A stretch of 64,000 nucleotides of DNA from Gammaproteobacteria bacterium (GCA_018061105.1 JAGOUU010000002.1:343-64342), one strand, 5' to 3'. Positions 5,333 to 63,208 are shown, counted from the first letter of the stretch. The notes: generated from the letters alone by a model not told the origin. A program made the numbers and translations.

Positions 5333-6769
5333 ATGGCAAATAATATTAATACTATAGATACTGATTTGGTAGTTTTAGGTAGTGGCCCCGGTGGCTACAG
5401 TGCTGCATTTAGAGCAGCTGATCTAGGTATTAACACTGTACTAGTAGAAAGATATCCTACTCTTGGAGGTGTTTGCCTAAATGTAGGTTGTATACCATCG
5501 AAAGCTTTATTACATACTGCAAAAGTCTTAGATGAAACAGCGCATTTATCAAATCAAGGTGTTGATTTTGGTAAGCCAAAAGTAGACATTAGAAAATTAC
5601 ATAATTGGGTCAGTAAAGACGTTGTAGGTAAATTAACCACTGGTCTTAAAATGATGGCGTCTAAACGTAAAGTACAAGTAGTAGAGGGCGTGGGTAGTTT
5701 TGCAAGTCCCAATAGCTTAGTAGTAGGTGATACGACTATTAATTTTAAGAATGCTATTATTGCAGCAGGATCGTCGCCTGTAAAATTACCTTTTTTACCG
5801 CAAGATCCGAGAATTATAGACTCTACAGGTGCTTTAAAACTTGAAGATATTCCTGAAAAAATGCTGGTTATAGGTGGGGGAATCATTGGTCTTGAAATGG
5901 CAACAGTTTATTCTACACTAGGTTCTAAAGTTACAATAGTAGAAATGCTGGAAGGTTTAATGGGAGGATTAGATAAAGATCTTGTTAGGCCTCTGCAGAA
6001 AACTCTCGAGAAAAAGTTGGAAAAAATATATTTAAATACCAAAGTCACCAAAGTAGAAGCTAAACCTGATGGTTTATGGGTTACTATGGAAGCTATGGAA
6101 TCTATGGAAGGTAAAGACGCTGGTGCGCCTACGGAGTCAGTTAAATACGACCGTATTTTAGTAAGCACAGGTAGAGTACCTAATGGTAAAACACTAGGTG
6201 CAGAGAAAGCTGGCGTCAAAGTAGATGAAAGAGGCTTTATAGCTGTTGACAATCAGCAGCGCACCAATGTTGCTCATATTTATGCTATTGGTGACATAGT
6301 AGGTAATCCTATGTTAGCACACAAGGCTATTCCAGAAGGCCGTTTAGCAGCGGAAGTTATAGCGGGTAAAAAACACTTTTTTGAAGCGAAAGTTATACCG
6401 TCAGTTGCCTACACTGATCCGGAAGTTGCTTGGGTGGGTATAATGGAGTCAGAGGCTAAAGAACAAGGGTTAGAATACGGTGTTGGTAAATTTCCTTGGG
6501 CAGCGAGCGGCCGATCATTAGCACAAGGTCGTAATGAAGGTTTGACTAAACTAATTTTTGATAAAAACACGCATAGATTACTCGGTGCAGGGATCGTTGG
6601 TCCAGGTGCGGGTGAATTAATCGCTGAGGCGACTTTAGCTATTGAAATGGGCTGTGACGCTGAAGACATTGCATTGACTATTCATCCTCATCCGACTGTA
6701 TCGGAGACTATTGCTTTAGCTACAGAAGTTTTTGAAGGGACTGTTACGGATTTGTATCTAGGTAGATAA
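5333..6769 (+). CDS. lpdA: dihydrolipoyl dehydrogenase E3
   Basis: FAD-binding GSGPGGY motif, redox-active GGVCLNVGCIPSK disulfide, 478 aa. Confidence 0.93.
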   Translation: MANNINTIDTDLVVLGSGPGGYSAAFRAADLGINTVLVERYPTLGGVCLNVGCIPSKALLHTAKVLDETAHLSNQGVDFGKPKVDIRKLHNWVSKDVVGKLTTGLKMMASKRKVQVVEGVGSFASPNSLVVGDTTINFKNAIIAAGSSPVKLPFLPQDPRIIDSTGALKLEDIPEKMLVIGGGIIGLEMATVYSTLGSKVTIVEMLEGLMGGLDKDLVRPLQKTLEKKLEKIYLNTKVTKVEAKPDGLWVTMEAMESMEGKDAGAPTESVKYDRILVSTGRVPNGKTLGAEKAGVKVDERGFIAVDNQQRTNVAHIYAIGDIVGNPMLAHKAIPEGRLAAEVIAGKKHFFEAKVIPSVAYTDPEVAWVGIMESEAKEQGLEYGVGKFPWAASGRSLAQGRNEGLTKLIFDKNTHRLLGAGIVGPGAGELIAEATLAIEMGCDAEDIALTIHPHPTVSETIALATEVFEGTVTDLYLGR

Positions 6770-8101
6770 GTTTGGTGAATCTGGTTTTGATGCTGCTTCA
6801 ATATCTGCAAGATCTGTAGTCGAAGTAGCTTTTGAAAACTGAACAGGGTTTTCAACACAGCTTTTTTGAAAAAGCTGTGCAGTGGTCGTAAAAATTTTAT
6901 AAAGCAGTTTTGAGATAATAGTTTTTATCAGCAATAAATACTTAATACCAATATTTAGCATATAAACAGGCACAGAAACTACCTGCATGAATAATGTAAA
7001 TAGTAATCTGCTTATACGTCTAGTTTCTTTTCTAACGTCCGTAATATTTTCAATTTTAAGATCATGAGTTGTTGCATGATGGCCAGCGATACAATTTTTA
7101 TGACAGTCTAAAATATTATAAGTATCGGCAATTTTAGAACTTAATCTATACAAGCTACTTCGAGGTGGTACCCAAGTACCATATAGGCTCACTTTGTCTC
7201 TTTTTTGAATAACTATATTTACAGGTTGGATTGTGCTTTTATCTTTTGTATGTTCTTCGTAGGTTTTTTTTGCCTTAGATAACAAAAATGCTGGGTTCAC
7301 TGCCCTGACAGCTACGAGATCAGGTTGATTAATATGTGCATGCATAGATAAGGAGCCACCTAAGCTCATGCCTGTGGCAATCACGGATCTAGTAACAGTT
7401 GCATTTGCTGTGATCCAATCTTGAATTTGTTTTTTACCTAGGTTGTATAATGTCTCTCCAGTACTTCTCATTGGTACCAAGTCAGTTCTAAATGTATGCC
7501 AACCCCCAGAGCAGGTTGGAATAGGGTTTGTGCCTCCAAATAATAGTAGGGCGTGGGCTTTTGGTTGATCAATAGGTTTGCATCCATAGGCATAATACGG
7601 CGAACCTACCAAATCAGAGGTCATAGGTATTTTTTCGGTTTTGTATTTAACTTGAATCCAGTTTCCATCTATAAGTTGAGGAACAATAATTTCAGTACCA
7701 TCCTTAGGCTCTGTGAATGGTATTATCGACAAAGCAAAATCAATAATAAATTTTAGTTGTAGAGGTTCTTTATTATCATCAGAATATTTAAAAGCTGTTT
7801 TATGCAACTCATGAGTTAAATGATAATGAGCATTATCTAAAATTTCTGATAGCCCATCGCGAAAGCCATCAAAAAATTCTTCGCTTTTTTTAAAGAGAAG
7901 GTTTTTTACTAGGGTCCAGGTTGGGATTTCCCCTAAAACAGGTTCATGACTAAATAATAGCTTACAAATCTTGCGCCCTATTAATTGATCAGAAGTAAAA
8001 CTGGGGGAGCCAGGTGCTGCATGATCATGGAATAACGGAGCCCCGTGTCCTTCTATAAATTTGCGTAAGCTAGTTGGGTTAGTAACTGCCGGCTTGGTCA
8101 T
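6758..8101 (-). CDS. serine hydrolase / lipase-esterase-like protein with C-terminal hydrophobic segment (effector candidate)
   Basis: GXSXG nucleophile elbow (ATGMSLGGSL), LLLFGGT oxyanion-hole-like region, His-rich catalytic region, and a hydrophobic stretch near the C-terminus. Overlaps the lpdA stop by 12 bp, convergently. Confidence 0.55.
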   Translation of the reverse strand: MTKPAVTNPTSLRKFIEGHGAPLFHDHAAPGSPSFTSDQLIGRKICKLLFSHEPVLGEIPTWTLVKNLLFKKSEEFFDGFRDGLSEILDNAHYHLTHELHKTAFKYSDDNKEPLQLKFIIDFALSIIPFTEPKDGTEIIVPQLIDGNWIQVKYKTEKIPMTSDLVGSPYYAYGCKPIDQPKAHALLLFGGTNPIPTCSGGWHTFRTDLVPMRSTGETLYNLGKKQIQDWITANATVTRSVIATGMSLGGSLSMHAHINQPDLVAVRAVNPAFLLSKAKKTYEEHTKDKSTIQPVNIVIQKRDKVSLYGTWVPPRSSLYRLSSKIADTYNILDCHKNCIAGHHATTHDLKIENITDVRKETRRISRLLFTLFMQVVSVPVYMLNIGIKYLLLIKTIISKLLYKIFTTTAQLFQKSCVENPVQFSKATSTTDLADIEAASKPDSPNLST

Positions 8102-8263: not shown

Positions 8264-8749
8264 ATGACTGAAGATTTAATTCCAGGTTCAGAAATGGGGG
8301 CGGGCGGAATAGGTGGGGCAAGCGATAAAAACGACTCTGGCTCTACTAAAGTAGCTAAAGAGGGGGGATCAATGGCTTTGCAAGCTGAAGGAGTGCCTAA
8401 ACCTATTGCAGACAAAGTCAGTAGCTTTGCTGTAGATGAAGCTCAGAAACAAAGCCTCGGTAACCGCTTAAAAGCAGGGACAGCTGCAGTGGGTAAACTT
8501 GTAGATGCATGGGGGGGGGCAAGCTCTGAAGCTGAAGAAGAGATCGCGAAGCAAACCACAAAAGATATGCAGGAAGCTATAAAAGAACTAGCTGAAACTG
8601 CATCTAAGTTAGCTAGCGGAAAAGTTGGCCGTGATTTAGCAATGGGAGCTAGTCCAGATGAGCCAGAATCAGATGAGCCAGAATCAGATGCTGATATGAG
8701 TTCTAAAAAAACCAAACAAGCTAAACCACGCTCACCGTTAGGTGATTAA
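8264..8749 (+). CDS. hypothetical acidic Gly/Ala-rich protein
   Basis: 161-aa ORF with a good Shine-Dalgarno sequence (aaaagagg). Relatively GC-rich, PESDEPESD repeat, and an in-frame G9 homopolymer. Confidence 0.5.
   Translation: MTEDLIPGSEMGAGGIGGASDKNDSGSTKVAKEGGSMALQAEGVPKPIADKVSSFAVDEAQKQSLGNRLKAGTAAVGKLVDAWGGASSEAEEEIAKQTTKDMQEAIKELAETASKLASGKVGRDLAMGASPDEPESDEPESDADMSSKKTKQAKPRSPLGD
8511..8519 (+). repeat. G9 homopolymeric tract inside a CDS
   Basis: Nine consecutive G, read directly from the sequence. Encodes W-G-G within the 8264..8749 ORF. Confidence 0.9.
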
Positions 8750-52320: not shown

Positions 52321-53778
52321 ATGCTTATTCCAGTGATTCTAAGTGGTGGCGTTGGATCAAGATTATGGCCATTATCGCGCAAGGCTAAGCCTAAGCATTT
52401 TATGCCATTGATAGACGATTGTATCGGAGATGCCAGCAAAAGCTTGCTGCAGCAAACGGTTGTGCGTTGTAATAGAAATGCTAAATTAGAAAATAATCCT
52501 TTTACTCATAATCCTGTAATGGTCTGTGACAGTGAACATAGATTTTTAGTAGCTGATCAATGTCGAGAAGTTAATGTTACTCCTGAGGCTATTATATTAG
52601 AGCCAGAACGTAAAGATACTGCTGCTGCTATAGTATTAGCAGCTTTGTATATTAATAACAGTAATCCTGAGGCTAATGTTTTAGTTTTACCCTCAGATCA
52701 TTATATGTCTGATAATATTTATTTTATGCAAAGGATCTCTGAAGCATTAAAATTTTCCCAAGATCATATTATAACTTTTGGCATCATGCCAAAATACCCT
52801 GAAACTGCCTATGGTTATATAAACGCTGATTTATCTCATGATTTAGGAAATGGTTGTTTCAACGTTAAACGTTTTATTGAAAAGCCAAAGCTACATGTGG
52901 CTGAAAAATTATTAGAAGCGCAAGATTGCTTTTGGAACAGTGGCATGTTTCTGTTTAGGGTTGGAAAATTTTTAGATTTATGTCAAGAGTATCAACCAGA
53001 ATTATTAGAAAACTGTAAAAAGACTATTGAGACAGGATATCAAGATCATGAGTTTGTTGCTTTTGATGCAAAATATTTTAATAAAATAGAACCTATTTCT
53101 GTTGATTATGCTCTTATGCAAGACGCTCAAGACATGATAGTTGCTAGATACGATGGTGAGTGGTCTGATGTTGGTTGCTGGCATGGAGTTTGGCAAAAAT
53201 CTAATAAAGATACTAATAATAATGTTGTGATGGGCAATGTGATTTATAATAATAATGTTGATAATTGTTATTTGCGGTCAGATAACCGTCTCATTGTTGT
53301 TGCTGATGTAGAAAACCTCAGTGTTATAGAAACACCTGATGCAGTATTAGTTACAACATTAGATAACTCTCAAAATTTAAGAGACATTGTCGAAGAGTCT
53401 TTAGCCCAAAATAAAAAAGAATTTCTTGAGCATAGCCATGTCCACCGGCCATGGGGTGAATATATAGTCTTAAGTGATGGCGCCCAGTTTAAAGTAAAAA
53501 AACTTATTGTGCGACCGGGCGCTGCTTTATCATTACAAGAACATTGTCATCGTTCTGAGCACTGGGTCGTTGTCGAGGGTGTAGCTAATATAGTACGCAA
53601 TGAAGAAACATTAACTTTAAAAATTAATGAAAGTATTTCTGTCGAAAAAAATACAAAACACCGCATTACTAATCCAAGCTCAAGCGAAAATTTAGTTATT
53701 ATTGAGGTTCAAGTAGGTGATTATTTAGGTGAAGATGATATCATACGCTATCAAGATAATTACGGGCGCGTTAAATAA
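52321..53778 (+). CDS. manC: mannose-1-phosphate guanylyltransferase / mannose-6-phosphate isomerase
   Basis: GGVGSRLWPLSR nucleotidyltransferase motif, C-terminal cupin domain, 485 aa. Confidence 0.85.
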   Translation: MLIPVILSGGVGSRLWPLSRKAKPKHFMPLIDDCIGDASKSLLQQTVVRCNRNAKLENNPFTHNPVMVCDSEHRFLVADQCREVNVTPEAIILEPERKDTAAAIVLAALYINNSNPEANVLVLPSDHYMSDNIYFMQRISEALKFSQDHIITFGIMPKYPETAYGYINADLSHDLGNGCFNVKRFIEKPKLHVAEKLLEAQDCFWNSGMFLFRVGKFLDLCQEYQPELLENCKKTIETGYQDHEFVAFDAKYFNKIEPISVDYALMQDAQDMIVARYDGEWSDVGCWHGVWQKSNKDTNNNVVMGNVIYNNNVDNCYLRSDNRLIVVADVENLSVIETPDAVLVTTLDNSQNLRDIVEESLAQNKKEFLEHSHVHRPWGEYIVLSDGAQFKVKKLIVRPGAALSLQEHCHRSEHWVVVEGVANIVRNEETLTLKINESISVEKNTKHRITNPSSSENLVIIEVQVGDYLGEDDIIRYQDNYGRVK

Positions 53779-56597: not shown

Positions 56598-56939
56598 ATG
56601 ATTAAGAAAAAATTATTAGGTTTTTTTGTATTAAATTTGTTTGCTTTTGGGCATATTTGTTATGCAGAATTTAATCCGTATCACAATAAAAATAATATCG
56701 AAGTAGCCCAAGGTAAAATTACCAAGATTATCGTAAGCAATGAGAACAATTATGAACCTGGATTTAGTCTCTGTGTAGAAGACGTTAAAAATGGTGAAGT
56801 CTGTATGTGGCGCCGGTCAAATTCTTTTAATTATCAACAATTATTAGATTTGGCTAATACAGCAGCTATTGCTAATAAACAAGTAATAATTAAATCCAAT
56901 ATGGTTGGCGCACTCGATACTATTATATTATTGTATTAA
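56598..56939 (+). CDS. small secreted hypothetical protein
   Basis: Signal peptide, two Cys, 113 aa. Shine-Dalgarno aggag. Confidence 0.45.
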   Translation: MIKKKLLGFFVLNLFAFGHICYAEFNPYHNKNNIEVAQGKITKIIVSNENNYEPGFSLCVEDVKNGEVCMWRRSNSFNYQQLLDLANTAAIANKQVIIKSNMVGALDTIILLY

Positions 56940-57032: not shown

Positions 57033-58289
57033 ATGCTCATGACAGAAAATCAGTTTCAGACTAGATATATTTTAATTTTAGTCATGCTAGCCTCAACTTT
57101 AGGGCAAGTGGCCACGGATATTTATCTTTCTTCATTGCCTGATTTGACCCTAATTTTTAATACCAGTAGTGAATTATTAAAGTTAACTATTACGGTTGTC
57201 TATTTTGGTTATGCTTTGATGCAATTTATTACTGGCCCATTGTCCGATCTCTATGGCCGAAAATTCTTTATGTTATTAGGACTCGGTATATTTATTCTAG
57301 GAGCTATATTAGCCCAAAACAGTCAGACTATTGAAAGTTTAATTCTTGCTAGATTAATACAAGGGATGGGTATAGGCAGCTTTGGAGTAGCTAATCGAGC
57401 TATTTTATTTGATACCTTTACGGGCAATCAGTATATAAGGGCTATTGCCATAGTCGGCATAGCAATGACGGTTTCGTCTTTGGTAGCACCTATGCTTGGG
57501 GCAACTATTCATCAGTCTTTTGGTTGGCGTGCTAATTTTAGTTTAAGTTTGTTATATGCTGGTTTATTATTTTTTGCCGTATTAGTTTTTTTACCGGAGA
57601 CTATAAATTTTAAAATTTCAAAAAACTTGGAATCTAAAAATATATTGAGTTTTATATTATCTAATTACCAAGTAATTATTATCTCTAAACAATACTGGAA
57701 ATATGGATTAATTAATATGCTCGGGTTTTCAGTATTTATATTTTATTTAAGTTCAGCGCCGTTTATTTTTCAAGAAGAGCTTAATTATAATAATATTCAA
57801 TATGCAAGGGCTATTTGTTGGTTAGCTGTAGGCTATATAGCAGGCAGTGCTATTGGGGGACGTGTAGTAAAATCTTATGGTCCTAAAGTTACTATATCTA
57901 TAGGTAATTACTGCCAGTTACTAGCTGGATTAATAATGTTTATATTTTATATAAATAATACTACCTCTATTGTGACTATATTAGGTCCTATGGTATTTTT
58001 TGTATTTGGTAATGGTTTTATTACTCCTAGTGCTACTTCTTTGCTGATTAATAATTTTCCTAATCGCGCAGCTAGCGCAGCTGCAGCCATGGGTACATTG
58101 ATGACAATGGGGACAGCAGTATTGAATGCTATTTTATTCCATTTTGGTAGTCACACTCTAATATTTATAGTTATTATAATTAGCAGCAGTGCTTTGGCTG
58201 TTAGAATTATTTTTTATGGTGATCCTAACCCAACAGATGGCGTATACATTGAAGGAACTGGTAATACAGGTGGCACAAGCTCCATTTGA
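57033..58289 (+). CDS. MFS transporter (DHA1 / Bcr-CflA-like)
   Basis: 12-TM profile, LSDLYGRK-type loop motif, 418 aa. Confidence 0.7.
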   Translation: MLMTENQFQTRYILILVMLASTLGQVATDIYLSSLPDLTLIFNTSSELLKLTITVVYFGYALMQFITGPLSDLYGRKFFMLLGLGIFILGAILAQNSQTIESLILARLIQGMGIGSFGVANRAILFDTFTGNQYIRAIAIVGIAMTVSSLVAPMLGATIHQSFGWRANFSLSLLYAGLLFFAVLVFLPETINFKISKNLESKNILSFILSNYQVIIISKQYWKYGLINMLGFSVFIFYLSSAPFIFQEELNYNNIQYARAICWLAVGYIAGSAIGGRVVKSYGPKVTISIGNYCQLLAGLIMFIFYINNTTSIVTILGPMVFFVFGNGFITPSATSLLINNFPNRAASAAAAMGTLMTMGTAVLNAILFHFGSHTLIFIVIIISSSALAVRIIFYGDPNPTDGVYIEGTGNTGGTSSI

Positions 58290-60277
58290 GGGAACCAATA
58301 AGAAGATCGAGATGGAGATTGAGGTGGAAGTGGAGGAGGAGGTGGTGGTGGTAAACTTGGTGTGCTTTCCCGCCAAGATGCAAAATCTCCAGCTGCGCGA
58401 GTCTTAGATCTAAACAGATTAAAAAAACCAGTGATACGAGATCTCCAACTGTTATTTTCAGGCCCTGCTGGCTCTCCTATGTGTATAGTGCCAGATGGAG
58501 GAATTAATTCCCGTGCAACAGGAATTCGGGTTGCAGGATCGTATTGTATTAAAACAGCTGGAGGAGTAGTACCAGGAGCAGGTGGATAAAACTCATAGGC
58601 AGGAGAAGCCTGTGTAGGAGGTATATAACGTGCTCCTAATCTAGCTGCTATTTCTGCTTTGTGTCTTTCTTCGATTTCTTGCTCATGAATTCTAATAAGC
58701 TTTTTCTCTTGAGGTATATAATAAAATATAACTCGAAATAAAGCCATGACGCAAACTATTTGATAAAGTATATTATAAATCCAATAAGTTAAAATAGTAA
58801 AAAGATCGCTTTGTAACTCTGGGTGTTTATGTAGTTTTATATAATTTAAAGCTAACAGTAATACCGTTTTCATTGCAAGTGAAATTCCTGTTACAGCCCA
58901 GTATTGCCAATAAGTGAGAGATAAGAGAAATACTGGGAGTCGTAAAATATCAGCAGCAACTTGAAACAAATAATACAACTGCCATAATTTAAGGCCAAGG
59001 CATTCCCCTAGAGAACAAGGCCAGTTAGTGATTAGATCGTAAAGAATTCTACCAGAATTGTATATTCTAGCCATTTCCCAAGAGTTTTTACGTTGAATTA
59101 TATAAGATGGTAAAGTTTGTGGAACTATGGTTTCTACTGGGTAATGCGTTGCAAAAATTGCTCGCATGCCCATTTGTCTAACTTTTCTGCCGTACTCAAA
59201 GTCCTCGCCACTAAAAACCCCATTATGGTTTTGGGAAGCGTTTATAAATCTATCTGTGCGCCAAAGTGAGCAAGCTCCATGAGGAGCTGCTGGACCAAGG
59301 CCTAGTCTGTCTAAAGCATTTTGAGTAACATCAGATGCTATATATTCTAATCCTTGCGCTTTACCAATTTGAGTGCATTTCTTATCAGGATTGGGTCCGA
59401 TTGCTAAAACTGGACAATTAACATAGGCAATTTTATGATCTGATTCATCAATTTCTTCCTGACTACTTCTTCTTAAAGCATGAGGATAGAATGGTGGTGT
59501 AATATCTAAAATATTTTGACATGGGAATACATCTTTATCGGCAATTATTAACCTAGTAAAATTTAATTTTTGTGCTTCCAAGGCGCCTTTATAAAGTGCA
59601 AAATTTTTATTTCCTACGCCATCAAAGCTATAAAAAAAATACCGAATTCTTGATGATGAAATTTGAGCTATGATTTCTTGAGTAAAATCTATTCGCTCGC
59701 CTTTAGCATTATAAGGATCTCTCGCCGGGCCGTTATTGCAGATAAAAATACACTCAGGGGTTGCTATTGTTAACCAAGTCTGAACAGCTCTTATAAAACA
59801 AGTTGTTTCTAATACATCACATAGTTCTAATAATTGCTCAAGAGTTAAGCTTCTAAGAGCTCTGTTGTCTTCTAAACTGTCAATATTATGGAGATCTTTA
59901 AATATTTTAACAGGCTTTTTAGCAGGAGCTGATCGATAGCAGGCTAGTAAGATTGCAACATCTGATCTAAGATGAGATCTAACAGGTGCAGCCGGTTTAG
60001 GGTATCTGGCGCCGATGAGAACAATAGAAAACATTACAGGCTCTAAACCCAGTAATACAGCCGTAATGGGTATAATATTTGCAGTAACGATAGGTCGTAT
60101 ATATTTTACTAAACCAACAGTAGCCTCGGTCGCAATTAGGCCACCAATTATAGTGCCTTCAATACTTAAAATAATAACTTTTTTTGCTGTTACAGGCACA
60201 AAGATTTCTTTGGGTGATAAAATATTTATAATTAAATCACGCCATTCTTTAAGAGCAATAACTGTAGTACTAGGCAT
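58214..60277 (-). CDS. family 2 glycosyltransferase, processive polysaccharide-synthase-like, with proline-rich C-terminal tail
   Basis: N-terminal TMs. GT-A domain with DKD (DxD), GED and a Q-RKNS-W (QxxRW-like) region. C-terminal TM bundle. Tail ...PPAPG...LPPPPPPPLPPQSP... Confidence 0.6.
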   Translation of the reverse strand: MPSTTVIALKEWRDLIINILSPKEIFVPVTAKKVIILSIEGTIIGGLIATEATVGLVKYIRPIVTANIIPITAVLLGLEPVMFSIVLIGARYPKPAAPVRSHLRSDVAILLACYRSAPAKKPVKIFKDLHNIDSLEDNRALRSLTLEQLLELCDVLETTCFIRAVQTWLTIATPECIFICNNGPARDPYNAKGERIDFTQEIIAQISSSRIRYFFYSFDGVGNKNFALYKGALEAQKLNFTRLIIADKDVFPCQNILDITPPFYPHALRRSSQEEIDESDHKIAYVNCPVLAIGPNPDKKCTQIGKAQGLEYIASDVTQNALDRLGLGPAAPHGACSLWRTDRFINASQNHNGVFSGEDFEYGRKVRQMGMRAIFATHYPVETIVPQTLPSYIIQRKNSWEMARIYNSGRILYDLITNWPCSLGECLGLKLWQLYYLFQVAADILRLPVFLLSLTYWQYWAVTGISLAMKTVLLLALNYIKLHKHPELQSDLFTILTYWIYNILYQIVCVMALFRVIFYYIPQEKKLIRIHEQEIEERHKAEIAARLGARYIPPTQASPAYEFYPPAPGTTPPAVLIQYDPATRIPVARELIPPSGTIHIGEPAGPENNSWRSRITGFFNLFRSKTRAAGDFASWRESTPSLPPPPPPPLPPQSPSRSSYWFPQMELVPPVLPVPSMYTPSVGLGSP

Positions 60278-60397
60278 ATTAATGTTTATTATATTAATAA
60301 AGTAAACACTAATACTATGGAATCAATTAGTTGTCAACGCAAATTTATTTAATATGATTAATATTTAATAAATTAATAAATAAATTTATATATAAAT

Positions 60398-61828: not shown

Positions 61829-63208
61829 ATGTTTACAAGTCTAACTGATAGATTGTCTGAAACTGTTAGAGATTTAAGCGGGCGAGGTCGTCTGACTGAA
61901 AAGAATATGAAATCAGCTCTAGATGAAGTTAACCGGGCATTATTAGACGCTGACGTGGCTTTACCTGTAGCCAAAAAGTTTATCATGAACGTCAAACAAA
62001 AGGCCATAGGTCAAAAAGTCCTCAAAAGTCTTTCGCCTGGTCAAGAGTTGGTAAAATTAGTAAAAAAAGAATTAACTTTATTAATGGGGCAGGCTAATGA
62101 GACTCTCGATCTCAAATCAGTGCCGCCTGTAGTAGTCTTGATGGCTGGCTTACAGGGCTCAGGAAAGACCACGACTACGGCAAAACTAGGTAAGTTTCTT
62201 AAAGTTCGTGAAAATAAAAAAGTCATGGTAGTCAGTGCCGATGTCTATAGGCCAGCGGCTATTGAACAATTAGAAGCTTTAGCGGAAGCTAACGAATTAA
62301 ATTTTTATCCAAGCACTACTAATGATAAGCCATCAGAGATAGCCAAATCAGCTTACAATGCAGCTAAACAGCAGGGTATGGATGTTCTGATAGTTGATAC
62401 AGCTGGACGGTTACATATAGATAACAATATGATGACTGAGATAAAAGAATTAGCTGCTTTATTAAAGCCAACGGAAATTTTATTTATTGTCGACAGCATG
62501 ACTGGGCAAGATGCTGCTAATACGGCAAAAGCTTTCAATGATGCTTTAGCTTTAACTGGTGTTATTTTAACTAAAGCTGATGGGGACGCTCGCGGTGGAG
62601 CAGCTCTGTCTATACGAGAAATCACAGGCAAACCTATTAAATTTTTGGGTGTTGGTGAAAAAACAGAAGCACTGCAGCCATTTCATCCGGATCGCGTGGC
62701 CTCTAGAATACTAGGCATGGGAGATGTTCTGAGCTTAATTGAAGAAGCAGAACAAAAAATGGATAGAGCTAAAGCAGAAAAATTTGCTAAAAAGCTTGAT
62801 AAAGGCAGTTTTGATCTTGAAGATTTTAGAGAGCAAATCAAACAAATGGGCAATATGGGTGGAATGAGTAATATTCTTGATAAAATGCCTGGGATGGGTC
62901 AATTGCCAGCTTCAGCAAAAGCCGCTATTAATGACGACATGTTCAAGGGCATTGATGCAATTATTAGTTCAATGACCAAGCAAGAACGTAGACAACCTGA
63001 GATTATTAAAGCATCACGAAAAAAACGTATAGCGTCAGGTAGCGGTACATCTATTCAAGAAGTCAATAAATTGCTTAAGCAGTTTGACCAAATGCAGACC
63101 ATGATGAAAAAGTTTTCGAAAAAGGGTGGGTTAGCTAGTCTCATGAAAATGATGAAGGGTAAAATGCCTGGTATTCCGGGTAGTGGTGGTTTTGGAATGC
63201 CGGCCTAA
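61829..63208 (+). CDS. ffh: signal recognition particle protein
   Basis: GLQGSGKTTT, DTAGR, Met-rich C-terminal M domain. Confidence 0.95.
   Translation: MFTSLTDRLSETVRDLSGRGRLTEKNMKSALDEVNRALLDADVALPVAKKFIMNVKQKAIGQKVLKSLSPGQELVKLVKKELTLLMGQANETLDLKSVPPVVVLMAGLQGSGKTTTTAKLGKFLKVRENKKVMVVSADVYRPAAIEQLEALAEANELNFYPSTTNDKPSEIAKSAYNAAKQQGMDVLIVDTAGRLHIDNNMMTEIKELAALLKPTEILFIVDSMTGQDAANTAKAFNDALALTGVILTKADGDARGGAALSIREITGKPIKFLGVGEKTEALQPFHPDRVASRILGMGDVLSLIEEAEQKMDRAKAEKFAKKLDKGSFDLEDFREQIKQMGNMGGMSNILDKMPGMGQLPASAKAAINDDMFKGIDAIISSMTKQERRQPEIIKASRKKRIASGSGTSIQEVNKLLKQFDQMQTMMKKFSKKGGLASLMKMMKGKMPGIPGSGGFGMPA

What the first reader, a model, noticed from the sequence alone, without database searches (positions are those of the whole stretch)
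58214..60277. Processive GT2 glycan-synthase-like membrane protein carrying a eukaryote-like poly-proline tail
The protein has the architecture of single-protein processive synthases (N-terminal TMs, cytoplasmic GT-A domain with DxD/GED/QxxRW-like motifs, C-terminal TM bundle). Examples are cellulose, chitin, hyaluronan and NodC synthases, and ceramide glucosyltransferase. It ends in about 130 residues rich in PP/PPxP, including LPPPPPPPLPPQSP. Poly-proline stretches of this kind are ligands for profilin, SH3, WW and EVH1 domains and are rare in bacterial biosynthetic enzymes. The QxxRW region is atypical (QRKNSW), so the substrate or product is unclear. Its 3' end overlaps the convergent MFS gene by 76 bp.
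Basis: partly seen in the sequence, partly recalled or inferred. Interest (0 to 1): 0.55.

Follow-up and report, generated by a model that had tools for sequence, protein, structure and literature searches.

The report
Membrane sugar-polymerase-like enzyme with proline-rich tail
This is a real gene for a divergent membrane-embedded glycosyltransferase of the hyaluronan/chitin/PNAG-synthase type, from an uncharacterised family found in protists and bacteria; it is always paired with a transporter gene in its closest relatives, and its disordered proline-rich tail is genuine and shared with those relatives but of unknown function.

Summary
In detail: a 687-aa ORF at 58214-60277 (-), with two N-terminal TM helices, a GT-A domain, C-terminal membrane helices, a 133-aa tail (22.6 % Pro, LPPPPPPPLPPQSP) and a 76-nt convergent overlap with an MFS gene.

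The tail is not an artefact. Its third-codon-position GC matches the core (0.20 vs 0.21). A syntenic orthologue in a related MAG (L003) has the same kind of tail, shared sequence islands and a 70-nt overlap.

The fold model matches hyaluronan, cellulose and chitin synthases. The family profile aligns to E. coli PgaC (hhalign 97.8 %). 'QRKNSW' is a variant of a family-wide QRVRSW motif, which is QxxRW with one inserted residue.

The family has about 211 cluster representatives. It has no characterised member and includes protists, Legionella birminghamensis and ordinary bacteria, so it is not specifically eukaryotic. Eukaryotic members lack the Pro-rich tail.

In all five loci of the closest clade the gene sits next to an orthologous Bcr/CflA-type MFS gene.

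Best reading: a resident inner-membrane synthase working with that transporter, with a disordered regulatory or scaffolding tail. A host-directed role for the polyproline is not excluded but unsupported. Moderate interest; a new variant of a known kind.

The parts
58214..60277 (-). 687-aa ORF: divergent membrane-integrated GT2 synthase-like protein
60011..60187 (-). N-terminal pair of transmembrane helices (aa 31-89)
   Evidence: hydropathy; AF2 helices 31-54 and 56-89 with pLDDT above 90
59114..59992 (-). Cytoplasmic GT-A catalytic domain (aa 96-388). It has two low-confidence insertions, about 118-160 (shared with the orthologue) and 259-283 (unique).
59726..59740 (-). C-N-N-G-P in place of the family's (V)DNGN. 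D181 is replaced by N at the first nucleotide-binding Asp position.
59528..59542 (-). A-D-K-D-V, the DxD metal/diphosphate motif. D247 and D249 are invariant in the family; the middle D248 is K here.
59342..59356 (-). Q-G-L-E-Y (family QxLEY). It aligns to PgaC QVGEY and resembles the chitin-synthase QxFEY motif (the chitin-synthase comparison is from my own knowledge).
59273..59284 (-). P-H-G-A, invariant in the family
59189..59212 (-). S-G-E-D-F-E-Y-G, the (G/T)ED motif. D359 aligns to the TED catalytic base of PgaC.
59078..59095 (-). Q-R-K-N-S-W, a variant of the family's QRVRSW (QxxRW plus one inserted residue) in the interface helix
58709..59113 (-). Interface helices and three C-terminal membrane helices (aa 389-523), including the conserved basic loop KLHKHPELQ (family NYxKLxxRPDLQ)
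58616..58708 (-). Conserved charged juxtamembrane helix (aa 524-554, KKLIRIxxQE...LGAR), 58 % identical to the L003 orthologue
58217..58615 (-). Disordered Pro-rich tail (aa 555-687, pLDDT below 50)
58406..58477 (-). Conserved island in the tail, GEPAGP...WRSRITGFFNLFRS. A short amphipathic helix is predicted at 612-622. The island is shared with L003/P0151 (GEPAEP...FMGFIRNVFNS).
58322..58354 (-). LPPPPPPPLPP, a heptaproline inside a conserved S[LF]xPxPPP patch. The codons are CCA/CCT only.
57033..58289 (+). Partner gene: a 418-aa Bcr/CflA/EmrD-like (DHA1) MFS transporter, convergent with the GT gene
58214..58289 (.). 76-nt convergent overlap that encodes the last 25 aa of both proteins. An equivalent 70-nt overlap exists in L003.
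60309..60337 (-). Candidate own promoter (pattern match only): TTGACA, 17 nt, TATTAG, ending 31 nt upstream of the ATG
   Evidence: read from the sequence; coordinates checked; not reported by the scan because the -10 hexamer lacks the final T

Best explanation
The gene encodes a resident inner-membrane, inverting GT2 glycosyltransferase of the membrane-integrated synthase class. Its closest relatives are PgaC/IcaA and NodC by sequence profile, and hyaluronan, cellulose and chitin synthases by fold.

Proposed mechanism: the cytoplasmic GT-A domain takes a nucleotide-sugar. D247/D249 hold the metal and diphosphate, D359 is the catalytic base, and W400 on the interface helix positions the acceptor at the membrane surface. 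The enzyme builds a beta-linked oligo- or polysaccharide or a glycolipid at the membrane. The adjacent, co-inherited DHA1-type MFS transporter exports or flips that product or a precursor.

The protein belongs to an uncharacterised GT2 subfamily with a one-residue insertion in QxxRW (QRVRSW). Here the diphosphate-binding Arg has become Asn while a Lys appears one position earlier. D181 is replaced by N and D248 by K, which suggests an altered or weakened donor site.

The C-terminal 133 residues are a genuine intrinsically disordered extension, most likely cytoplasmic. It carries a few short conserved islands and probably acts as a regulatory or partner-binding tether. The heptaproline is a lineage-specific expansion of a conserved proline patch.

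Shown: the ORF, the fold class, the motif state, the family, that the tail is real and conserved, and the MFS linkage. Inferred: the donor, the product, the role of the MFS, which side of the membrane the tail is on, and what the tail does.
For: Fold. The AF2 model has pTM 0.75 and residues 7-554 are confident. The best PDB matches are CvHAS, XlHAS1, BcsA, Chs1, PsChs1 and CaChs2, and they cover the TM region too.

Sequence. Of 22 aligned relatives, 20 match Pfam GT2 PF13641 (best 1.6e-17) and 12 match PgaC_IcaA below threshold. hhalign of the family profile against E. coli PgaC gives 97.8 % probability and E 1.2e-12 over the whole GT domain. DxD, QxxEY, TED and QRLR-W align to DDD, QxLEY, GED and QRVRSW. 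D247, D249, Q308, E311, Y312, H333-A335, D359, Q395, R396 and W400 are invariant in the alignment.

Resident enzyme with an MFS partner. All five loci of the closest clade have an orthologous MFS next to the GT gene: window, L003, L004/5, L007 and L009. The MFS proteins are 42-72 % identical to each other. The arrangement is convergent in two loci and divergent in three, so the linkage survived rearrangement. In L004 the pair sits beside GtrA, GT1, GT2, an ABC-2 transporter and RmlD. In L007 it sits beside a sugar epimerase. Other family members lie in ordinary bacterial contexts, for example L017 at 65 % GC, which also has an MFS next door, and L016. A cytoplasmic-face glycosyltransferase paired with an MFS flippase has a precedent in YpfP-LtaA (PMC8866510).

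The tail is real and constrained. GC3 equals that of the core and only 0.3 % of shuffles are stop-free. The orthologue L003 (Ffh 87 % identical) keeps a 193-aa tail with shared islands and a PPPP patch. Tail identity is 34 % against 38 % for the GT domain itself.

Cytoplasmic side favoured. The family averages 4.1 K+R in the 25 residues after the last helix, against 0.6 in the TM3-TM4 loop. HAS has a cytosolic interface helix in the equivalent position (PMC11750622).
Against: The window protein itself misses the Pfam gathering scores (21.5 and 20.8 bits against 27) and matches no NCBIfam model and no PDB sequence.

It deviates at 6 of 38 columns that are at least 80 % conserved in the family. 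Most of these are in the donor site: H114Y, D181N, D248K and V397K, plus R398N. R398 corresponds to the Arg that salt-bridges the UDP diphosphate in HAS. Activity is therefore not guaranteed.

No gating-loop motif (WGT.., FxVTxK) is present. There are only three helices after the GT domain, against four TM helices plus an interface helix in HAS, so processive translocation through its own channel is uncertain.

The side of the membrane on which the tail lies is not settled. The last helix (498-523) is the most hydrophobic of all in this protein. NodC is reported to have a periplasmic C-terminus (my own recollection of the literature, not checked here).

The Legionella birminghamensis and P0011 relatives have no adjacent orthologous MFS. 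No member of the family has a known product.
Confidence: 0.6

Rival explanations
1. Host-directed protein. The enzyme is delivered into, or exposed on, a host (protist) membrane. It uses host nucleotide-sugars there, and its LPPPPPPPLPP / PQSPSR tail recruits host profilin, Ena/VASP-EVH1, SH3 or WW proteins.
For: The tail contains formal matches to [FWYL]PPPP, PPLP and PxxPxR. The family is shared with diverse protists: Aduncisulcus, Telonema, Eukaryota sp. TZLM3-RCL and a contig carrying Spt5. The best viral fold matches are giant viruses of amoebae, and there is a Legionella homologue. The gene evolves far faster than its neighbours: 41 % identity against 87 % for Ffh. The window and its relatives encode several proteins with Inc-like bilobed hydrophobic domains, which hints at an intracellular lifestyle. 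The TM segments are only moderately hydrophobic.
Against: The tight, rearrangement-resistant linkage to a 12-TM MFS transporter, and in L004 to an O-antigen-type cluster, argues for a resident envelope function. The exact ligand motifs are not conserved: L003 has SPAPPPPAP and others have PPP or less. Eukaryotic homologues lack the Pro-rich tail. Family members occur in apparently ordinary bacteria. No secretion system or signal could be examined. Any long proline run matches these patterns trivially.
Confidence: 0.08
2. Same resident synthase, but the C-terminus is periplasmic. The proline-rich segment would then be an extended, TonB-like spacer that reaches peptidoglycan or the outer membrane and couples synthesis to export.
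For: There are three hydrophobic helices after a cytoplasmic GT domain, which would put the C-terminus outside. Helix 498-523 has the lowest insertion free energy in the protein (1.8 kcal/mol on the Hessa-type scale). Pro-rich periplasm-spanning spacers are established in TonB (my own knowledge). No outer-membrane export component is encoded nearby.
Against: The segment right after the last helix is rich in K and R: 7 in 27 residues here, and a family mean of 4.1 in 25. In the family consensus that helix carries conserved K and R residues, averaging 2.1 per helix, like the cytosolic IFH3 of HAS. Many relatives have short tails that could not span a periplasm.
Confidence: 0.17
3. Decaying or repurposed pseudoenzyme. 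The donor-site substitutions have abolished transfer, and the protein persists as a scaffold or is on the way to being lost.
For: The protein deviates at 6 of 38 highly conserved columns, against 1-4 in close relatives. The deviations are concentrated in nucleotide-binding motifs and include loss of the QxxRW arginine. The GT domain is the least conserved ordered part of the protein (38 %). A sister genome, L011, lacks the gene pair at this site.
Against: The ORF is intact over 687 codons with normal codon-position composition. The catalytic D359, D247/D249, Q395, R396, W400, QxLEY and PHGA are all retained. The V-R to K-N change recurs in two eukaryotic lineages, which suggests a tolerated and compensated state. 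The membrane helices and the juxtamembrane helix are well conserved at 52-58 %.
Confidence: 0.12
4. The tail is an artefact of a frameshift, a mis-called stop or a mis-assembly.
For: Low-complexity sequence at a gene end that overlaps the neighbouring gene is a typical signature of such errors.
Against: GC3 is 0.20 in the tail against 0.21 in the core, and the alternative frames are full of stops. An independent assembler gives the identical protein. The orthologue in a different MAG has the same tail organisation, shared islands up to the last residues (..P.PS[MF]..P) and the same overlap. P0005, P0152 and P0009 also have Pro-containing tails.
Confidence: 0.02

Closest known systems
PgaC/IcaA poly-beta-1,6-GlcNAc synthase (TIGR03937) and NodC chitooligosaccharide synthase (TIGR04242)
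   Same: They are small membrane GT2 enzymes with N-terminal TM helices, a cytoplasmic GT-A domain and about three C-terminal helices. The whole GT domain aligns at profile level (97.8 %), including DxD, QxxEY, (T/G)ED and QRxRW. NodC-type enzymes need a separate exporter, as proposed here for the MFS (the NodC export point is my own knowledge).
   Different: The window protein matches neither model, and relatives match only below threshold. QxxRW carries an inserted residue and lacks its Arg. There are no pgaABD, icaBD or nod neighbours; the partner is a DHA1 MFS. A 133-aa Pro-rich tail is added.
Class I hyaluronan synthases (Chlorella virus HAS, Xenopus HAS1)
   Same: They are the best solved-structure matches (E 3e-10, TM-score 0.55-0.58 on the target). 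Both have two N-terminal TM helices, a GT-A domain and an interface helix carrying the Q..RW-type motif.
   Different: Sequence identity is 12 %. HAS has four C-terminal TM helices plus three interface helices and a WGTSGRK/R gating loop (PMC11750622). This protein has three helices after the GT domain and no such loop. Nothing indicates the GDDR or DxDT motif variants or two-substrate use.
Chitin synthases and BcsA cellulose synthase
   Same: Same fold class. The family's QxLEY(K)xSD and PHGA motifs resemble the chitin-synthase QxFEY(K)xS and PGC motifs (my own recollection of those motifs).
   Different: hhalign to E. coli BcsA gives only 10 % probability, and only over the N-terminal half of the GT domain. 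There is no PilZ domain, no BcsB and no chitin-synthase-specific domains.
YpfP-LtaA glycolipid synthase plus MFS flippase pair of Staphylococcus aureus
   Same: A glycosyltransferase acts at the cytoplasmic face and a dedicated MFS moves its product across the membrane (PMC8866510). The neighbouring-gene logic is the same; that ypfP and ltaA are adjacent is my own knowledge.
   Different: YpfP is a soluble or peripheral GT-B enzyme (my own knowledge), not a membrane GT2. Homology of LtaA to this MFS was not tested. This is an analogy only.
Proline-rich tracts of actin-manipulating bacterial proteins (ActA FPPPP repeats, BimA, RickA, Sca2, TARP)
   Same: A polyproline run with flanking L/P residues that formally fits EVH1, profilin and SH3 ligand patterns.
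   Different: Those proteins are surface or secreted factors with WH2 or other actin-binding modules (my own knowledge). Here the tract is attached to a polytopic enzyme, no WH2-like LKKV motif is present, and the motif is not conserved in orthologues.

Membership tests
GT2 glycosyltransferases (GT-A fold; Pfam PF13641, PF13632, PF00535) | Significant match to GT2 sequence models | tested here: met
   The window protein alone is below the gathering score (21.5 and 20.8 bits against 27). However, 20 of 22 aligned relatives match PF13641 (best 1.6e-17), and the family profile aligns to PgaC at 97.8 %.
GT2 glycosyltransferases (GT-A fold) | GT-A Rossmann-like fold | tested here: met
   AF2 model with pTM 0.75. 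All significant Foldseek matches are GT-A/GT2 enzymes.
Membrane-integrated processive GT2 synthases (BcsA, HAS, CHS, PgaC, NodC) | DxD metal/diphosphate motif | tested here: met
   D247-K-D249. Both Asp are invariant in the family and align to the PgaC D-G-D.
Membrane-integrated processive GT2 synthases | First nucleotide-binding Asp (DDG / DGS / DNG) | tested here: not met
   The window has N181-N-G where 88 % of the family has D-N-G.
Membrane-integrated processive GT2 synthases | Catalytic base in the (G/T)ED motif | tested here: met
   G357-E358-D359. D359 is invariant and aligns to the PgaC TED.
Membrane-integrated processive GT2 synthases | Q(Q/R)xRW on an interface helix | tested here: inconclusive
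   Q395, R396 and W400 are invariant and lie on helix 389-406. But the family has one extra residue before W (QRVRSW against PgaC QRLR-W), and here the Arg is Asn with a Lys one position earlier. That Arg contacts the UDP diphosphate in HAS.
Membrane-integrated processive GT2 synthases | TM helices flanking the GT domain and packing into a channel-like bundle similar to solved synthases | tested here: met
   Foldseek alignments of 525-600 columns to HAS, BcsA and Chs include the TM region, with target TM-scores up to 0.58. Helices are listed.
Membrane-integrated processive GT2 synthases | Gating loop motif (FxVTxK in BcsA; WGTSGRK/R or WGTRG in HAS) | tested here: not met
   Neither pattern is present. 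The only conserved cytoplasmic loop is KLxxRPDLQ.
Membrane-integrated processive GT2 synthases | Processive polymerisation coupled to translocation | not testable with these tools
   This needs an enzyme assay and product analysis.
PgaC/IcaA PNAG synthase system | Match to TIGR03937 above its cut-off, and pgaABD or icaBD partner genes | tested here: not met
   The window protein has no NCBIfam hit. Twelve of 22 relatives hit only weakly. The neighbours are an MFS, CNNM and a desaturase.
Ceramide glucosyltransferase (GT21, PF13506) | Match to the GT21 model | tested here: not met
   The window protein has no match. Five of 22 relatives match at 9.8e-5 at best.
Uncharacterised 'QRVRSW' GT2 subfamily (defined here) | Full-length similarity plus the invariant set N182, K224, D247, D249, Q308-E311-Y312, H333-G-A335, D359, Q395-R396, W400, R446 | tested here: met
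   There are 211 representatives at E of 1e-3 or better. In the NJ tree the window protein is sister to P0151/L003.
Translocated effectors of intracellular bacteria (Dot/Icm, T3SS) | A secretion system in the genome and a translocation signal or demonstrated translocation | not testable with these tools
   Only one 64-kb window is available and it holds no secretion-system gene.
Eukaryotic proline-ligand motifs (EVH1, profilin, SH3, WW) | Motif present and conserved in orthologues | tested here: inconclusive
   LPPPP, PPLP and PQSPSR are present. Orthologues keep only a proline patch (SPAPPPPAP, SMPPPA, ILPPPV), not the exact motifs. Binding cannot be tested here.

The most novel reading that the evidence does not exclude
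A bacterium that lives inside protists places a polytopic glycan or glycolipid synthase in the membrane facing the host. The family may have been exchanged among protists, giant viruses and Legionella-like bacteria. The enzyme's LPPPPPPPLPP/PxxPxR tail would then dock host profilin, Ena/VASP or SH3 proteins, coupling glycan synthesis on the vacuole to the host cytoskeleton or to signalling.
Probability: 0.06. Interest if true: 0.85.

Novelty: new variant of a known kind. Interest (0 to 1): 0.36.

Why it matters
The window protein is one representative of an uncharacterised branch of the membrane GT2 synthases. That branch has about 211 cluster representatives and no studied member. It has three distinctive features: a modified QxxRW motif (one-residue insertion, and in three lineages a Lys-Asn swap for the diphosphate-binding Arg), fewer membrane helices after the GT domain than HAS, and, in one bacterial clade, an obligatory MFS partner and a disordered proline-containing tail.

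Identifying the product would add a new glycan or glycolipid pathway shared by protists and bacteria. It would also test whether an MFS can serve as the export partner of a GT2 synthase, and whether the canonical Arg of QxxRW is dispensable. The proline tail on its own is not evidence of host mimicry.

Tried and rejected
- A phmmer search of the protein against PDB sequences gave nothing. The profile search found only N-terminal GT-A similarity to heparosan and chondroitin synthases and to ArnC, at E about 0.02-0.2.
- The word-indexed homologue search found only 3 proteins. Repeating it with the alignment added nothing useful. The exhaustive search was needed to find the family.
- Alignment-driven locus scans failed with the broad alignments. 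With the narrow alignment, one GTDB locus (L003) was found. Two metagenome scans and one viral scan found no relative.
- Literature searches for the motif strings, the run and assembly accessions and the Legionella protein accessions returned nothing. The Legionella comparative-genomics paper mentions only chitin deacetylase and chitinases.
- The promoter and terminator scan was at background level and found no terminator between the convergent genes. Rfam found only two tRNAs far away.
- I tried to decide the side of the tail from hydrophobicity. All helices are marginal and the last one ranks differently in this protein and in the family, so the result is inconclusive.
- Taxonomic placement through Ffh failed. 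The nearest named relatives are only 63-68 % identical and scattered across Gammaproteobacteria.
- I considered GDP-mannose as the donor because manC lies 4.4 kb away and sits next to the homologue in L010. I rejected this as evidence because the manC-malic enzyme block is syntenic in L012 without the GT gene.
- I considered a functional link to the neighbouring desaturase. It is seen only in the window and L003, which are syntenic by descent, so I left it open.

Full report
**1. The observation**

The ORF at 58214..60277 on the minus strand is 687 codons long and starts with ATG. The same protein is annotated in an NCBI MAG ('Gammaproteobacteria bacterium', KBD64_00615). It is also recovered from a separate Logan assembly of run SRR11088367.

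Hydropathy analysis and the structure model give this layout:
- two N-terminal helices, 31-54 and 56-89;
- a globular domain at about 96-388;
- helices at 389-417, 423-452, 457-481 and 498-523;
- a charged helix at 530-546;
- a tail, 555-687, with no confident structure.

The tail is 22.6 % proline, against 4.3 % for the 44 ORFs of at least 150 aa in the window. It contains the only run of four or more prolines among those ORFs, P643-P649 inside LPPPPPPPLPPQSP. The convergent MFS ORF (57033..58289) overlaps the 3' end by 76 nt.

**2. Is the tail real?**

Yes, on three lines of evidence.
- Third-position GC is 0.20 in the tail and 0.21 in the core, while first- and second-position GC rise to 0.57 and 0.62. 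This is what selection for Pro, Ala and Gly codons in an AT-rich genome produces, and not what an out-of-frame read-through produces. Only 0.3 % of shuffles of the tail DNA remain open, and the other two forward frames contain 4 and 6 stops.
- A scan of GTDB species representatives found one relative, contig CAZSRF010000003.1 of another uncultured gammaproteobacterial MAG (L003). Its gene order is the same: rpsP-ffh-CNNM-GT-MFS-desaturase. Its GT protein is 721 aa, and its MFS gene is again convergent and overlaps by 70 nt.
- The two GT proteins share tail landmarks through to the last residues. These are the juxtamembrane helix KKLIRIxxQE...LGAR, an island GEPA(G/E)P...GF..N(L/V)F.S, a patch S(L/F)xPxPPP and a C-terminal ..P(V/R)PS(M/F)...P. 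Over aligned columns the tail is 34 % identical. That is close to the 38 % of the catalytic domain itself.

More distant members of the clade (P0005, P0152/P0006, P0009) also have long tails with 8-14 % Pro and PPP patches. Only the window protein has seven prolines in a row. The heptaproline is encoded by CCA and CCT codons only. I read it as a lineage-specific expansion of a conserved proline patch.

**3. What the protein is**

On its own the protein barely registers. Pfam GT2 models score 21.5 and 20.8 bits, below the gathering score of 27. There is no NCBIfam hit and no PDB sequence hit.

An exhaustive phmmer search of 1.84 billion cluster representatives found 211 relatives at E of 1e-3 or better, and 15 at 1e-30 or better. 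Of 22 aligned relatives, 20 match PF13641 (best 1.6e-17), and 12 match the PNAG-synthase model PgaC_IcaA below threshold. A profile of the family aligns to E. coli PgaC with 97.8 % probability (E 1.2e-12) across the whole GT domain. In that alignment DDD pairs with D-G-D, QxLEY with QVGEY, PHGA with VSGV, GED with TED, and QRVRSW with QRLR-W. E. coli BcsA aligns only weakly, at 10 % probability.

An AlphaFold2 model built on the 22-sequence alignment has pTM 0.75, and residues 7-554 are mostly above pLDDT 80. Its best matches among solved structures are all membrane-integrated GT2 synthases:
- Chlorella-virus hyaluronan synthase (E 3e-10, target TM-score 0.55-0.58);
- Xenopus HAS1;
- BcsA;
- yeast Chs1;
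- Phytophthora Chs1;
- Candida Chs2.

The alignments span 525-600 columns and so include the membrane part.

**4. The atypical QxxRW**

'QRKNSW' is a variant of a family signature. Among the 150 listed representatives, 58 have QRVRSW and most of the rest have QR[VI][RK]SW. The PgaC alignment shows that the family carries one extra residue between the Arg and the Trp of canonical QxxRW.

Six representatives have exactly QRKNSW. In a neighbour-joining tree they fall in three separate places: the window protein, the P0002/P0050 group and the P0003/P0072/P0146 group. The change from V-R to K-N therefore happened repeatedly. It moves the positive charge by one position rather than removing it. In hyaluronan synthase the corresponding Arg salt-bridges the UDP diphosphate and the Trp positions the acceptor (PMC11750622).

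The window protein also departs from the family at H114Y, D181N (the first nucleotide-binding Asp), D248K (the middle residue of DDD) and P253C. In all it departs at 6 of 38 columns that are at least 80 % conserved, against 1-4 in its close relatives. All residues expected to do chemistry or hold the acceptor are retained: D247, D249, D359, Q395, R396, W400, QxLEY and PHGA.

I read this as an altered or weakened donor site rather than a dead enzyme. The pseudoenzyme reading stays open at about 12 %.

**5. Who has the family**

It is not a eukaryotic family that strayed into one bacterium.

Eukaryotic members exist:
- Aduncisulcus paluster (P0003);
- Telonema subtile (P0102);
- 'Eukaryota sp. 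TZLM3-RCL' (P0082);
- P0002, on a 483-kb contig with Spt5, Memo and an aspartic protease.

Bacterial members exist too:
- Legionella birminghamensis WP_058523935 (P0010);
- P0089, next to two-component regulators;
- P0016, in a 65 %-GC contig with PfkB, mannitol dehydrogenase and ClpB.

The best matches among predicted viral structures are Terrestrivirus and Yasminevirus proteins (E 1e-18 and 3e-17). I could not retrieve their sequences to test whether they belong to the family.

The window protein sits in a bacterial sub-clade: (window, P0151/L003), then (P0005, P0152, P0008), then (P0010, P0011). Eukaryotic members have tails with 3-5 % Pro. The tail was therefore not inherited from a eukaryote. 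No member of the family appears in the literature I could search.

**6. Genomic context**

The most informative new result is the partner gene. In all five loci of the closest clade an orthologous Bcr/CflA/EmrD-like MFS gene is the immediate neighbour. It is convergent in the window and L003, and divergent in L004/L005 (P0152), L007 (P0008) and L009 (P0005). The MFS proteins are 42-72 % identical to each other. Linkage that survives an inversion of relative orientation and relocation in the genome indicates a functional pair.

Other context points:
- In L004 the pair lies beside GtrA, GT1 and GT2 genes, an ABC-2 transporter pair, RmlD and a methyltransferase. In L007 it lies beside a sugar epimerase.
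- L004 comes from the same two samples as L012, whose Ffh is 78 % identical to the window's. L004 and L012 probably come from one organism of the same uncultured lineage. If so, that organism has the pair elsewhere in its genome, while the slot between malic enzyme and CNNM holds two unrelated membrane proteins.
- A closer relative, L011 (Ffh 84 % identical), lacks the pair at this slot.
- Between the window and L003 the GT is the fastest-evolving gene of the block. Identities are Ffh 87 %, CNNM 79 %, RpsP 75 %, desaturase 62 %, MFS 54 % and GT 41 %.
- The Legionella and P0011 homologues stand alone without this MFS.

The overlap itself covers just the last 25 residues of each protein. All four MFS orthologues have a short cytoplasmic tail after their last helix. 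No terminator-like hairpin lies between the two genes. A TTGACA-17 nt-TATTAG pattern lies 31 nt upstream of the ATG, but this is a pattern match only.

**7. How it most likely works**

My best account, at about 0.6, is a resident inner-membrane synthase. Its cytoplasmic GT-A domain transfers sugar from a nucleotide-sugar to an acceptor held at the membrane surface by the interface helix. Its product is exported or flipped by the partner MFS.

The product could be a short beta-linked oligosaccharide, a polymer or a glycolipid. Two precedents make the pairing plausible. NodC makes oligosaccharides that a separate transporter exports (my own knowledge). YpfP makes a glycolipid on the cytoplasmic leaflet that the MFS LtaA flips (PMC8866510).

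Several features make me doubt that the enzyme translocates a long polymer by itself. Compared with HAS, which has two plus four TM helices, three interface helices and a WGT gating loop, this protein has only three helices after the GT domain and no gating-loop motif.

The donor sugar is unknown. The PgaC and NodC affinity hints at UDP-GlcNAc, but weakly.

**8. The tail**

The model gives the tail no structure apart from a short amphipathic helix at 612-622, within the conserved island, and that helix has low confidence.

Which side of the membrane it lies on is not settled.
- For a cytoplasmic location: the segment after the last helix is rich in Lys and Arg (7 in 27 residues here; a family mean of 4.1 in 25, against 0.6 in the presumed periplasmic TM3-TM4 loop). 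The last helix carries conserved K and R residues in the family, like the cytosolic IFH3 of HAS.
- Against: in this particular protein that helix is the most hydrophobic of all, and an odd number of spans would put the tail in the periplasm. There it could act as a TonB-like spacer.

I give the cytoplasmic location roughly two to one.

In either case the conserved islands argue for a regulatory or partner-binding tether. The formal matches to LPPPP, PPLP and PxxPxR are what any long proline run gives, and they are not conserved in the orthologues.

**9. The host-mimicry reading**

It cannot be excluded. The lineage shows signs of an intracellular lifestyle:
- three tandem Inc-like proteins with bilobed hydrophobic domains at 31456-35420;
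- an HPD-motif protein with the same kind of C-terminus in L012;
- low GC content;
- a fast-evolving GT gene.

The family also circulates among protists and Legionella, and perhaps giant viruses. Against this stand the conserved coupling to a 12-TM transporter, the placement in a surface-polysaccharide cluster in L004, and family members in ordinary bacteria. These make a translocated polytopic enzyme unlikely. I put it at 6-8 %.

**10. Verdict**

The protein is a new variant of a known kind: a membrane GT2 synthase from an uncharacterised subfamily with a modified QxxRW, a conserved MFS partner and a genuine, conserved but rapidly diverging proline-containing disordered tail. Interest is moderate (0.36). 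The value lies in the uncharacterised family and the GT-MFS module rather than in the polyproline itself.

Noticed in passing
window 31456-35420 (-): Three tandem paralogous ORFs of 417, 375 and 460 aa with no Pfam domain. Each has a charged, coiled-coil-like N-terminal half and a C-terminal block of about 120 aa made of long hydrophobic hairpins (..KPYIIAG.VV..FAPG..). They resemble Inc-type vacuole-membrane proteins of intracellular bacteria.
   Followed up: partly
window 6758-8101 (-): A 447-aa ORF without a Pfam hit. It carries a GMSLGG serine-hydrolase-like motif and a hydrophobic C-terminal segment.
   Followed up: no
window 8264-8749 (+): A 161-aa ORF with a sub-threshold WXG100 match (E 1.2e-5; 26 bits against a cut-off of 27.3).
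   Followed up: no
window 56598-56939 (+): A small 113-aa ORF with a signal-peptide-like N-terminus. It is 67 % identical to a 102-aa ORF next to CNNM in the related contig L011, so it is a real conserved gene of unknown function.
   Followed up: partly
window 40684-42219 (+) and L012 6586-8568: A 511-aa ORF with no Pfam hit. It shares 26 % identity over 208 aa with a 660-aa membrane protein that occupies the GT slot in the related contig L012.
   Followed up: no
L012 4747-6270 (-): A 507-aa protein that starts with an HPD (J-domain-like) motif, followed by internal repeats and a C-terminal bilobed hydrophobic region. The interval between malic enzyme and CNNM looks like a variable island in this lineage.
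   Followed up: partly
L003 14211-15065 (+): A 284-aa Pro/Ser/Ala-rich ORF (APPPARPPSGSPP, LPAPPPTVRP) with no Pfam hit in the syntenic MAG. A 196-aa ORF overlaps it on the opposite strand, so it may or may not be a gene.
   Followed up: no
BFVD entries A0A3G4ZPD3 (Terrestrivirus) and A0A5K0UB88 (Yasminevirus): Predicted structures from giant viruses of amoebae match the model better (E 1e-18 and 3e-17) than any solved structure does. They may belong to the same GT2 subfamily.
   Followed up: no
L016 6483-7607 and 10746-12404: Two paralogous secreted proteins of unknown function flank the GT2 homologue P0089 in a bacterial contig. They could be glycan-processing partners.
   Followed up: no
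L010 2-1228 and window 52321-53778: A ManC (GDP-mannose pyrophosphorylase/isomerase) gene lies two genes upstream of the homologue P0019, and 4.4 kb from the window GT gene. In the window this is probably synteny rather than a functional link.
   Followed up: partly
window 61829-63208 (ffh): The nearest named Ffh relatives are only 63-68 % identical and scattered across Gammaproteobacteria. About ten unnamed metagenomic sequences are 73-87 % identical. The window therefore comes from a deep, uncultured gammaproteobacterial lineage with about 35 % GC.
   Followed up: partly
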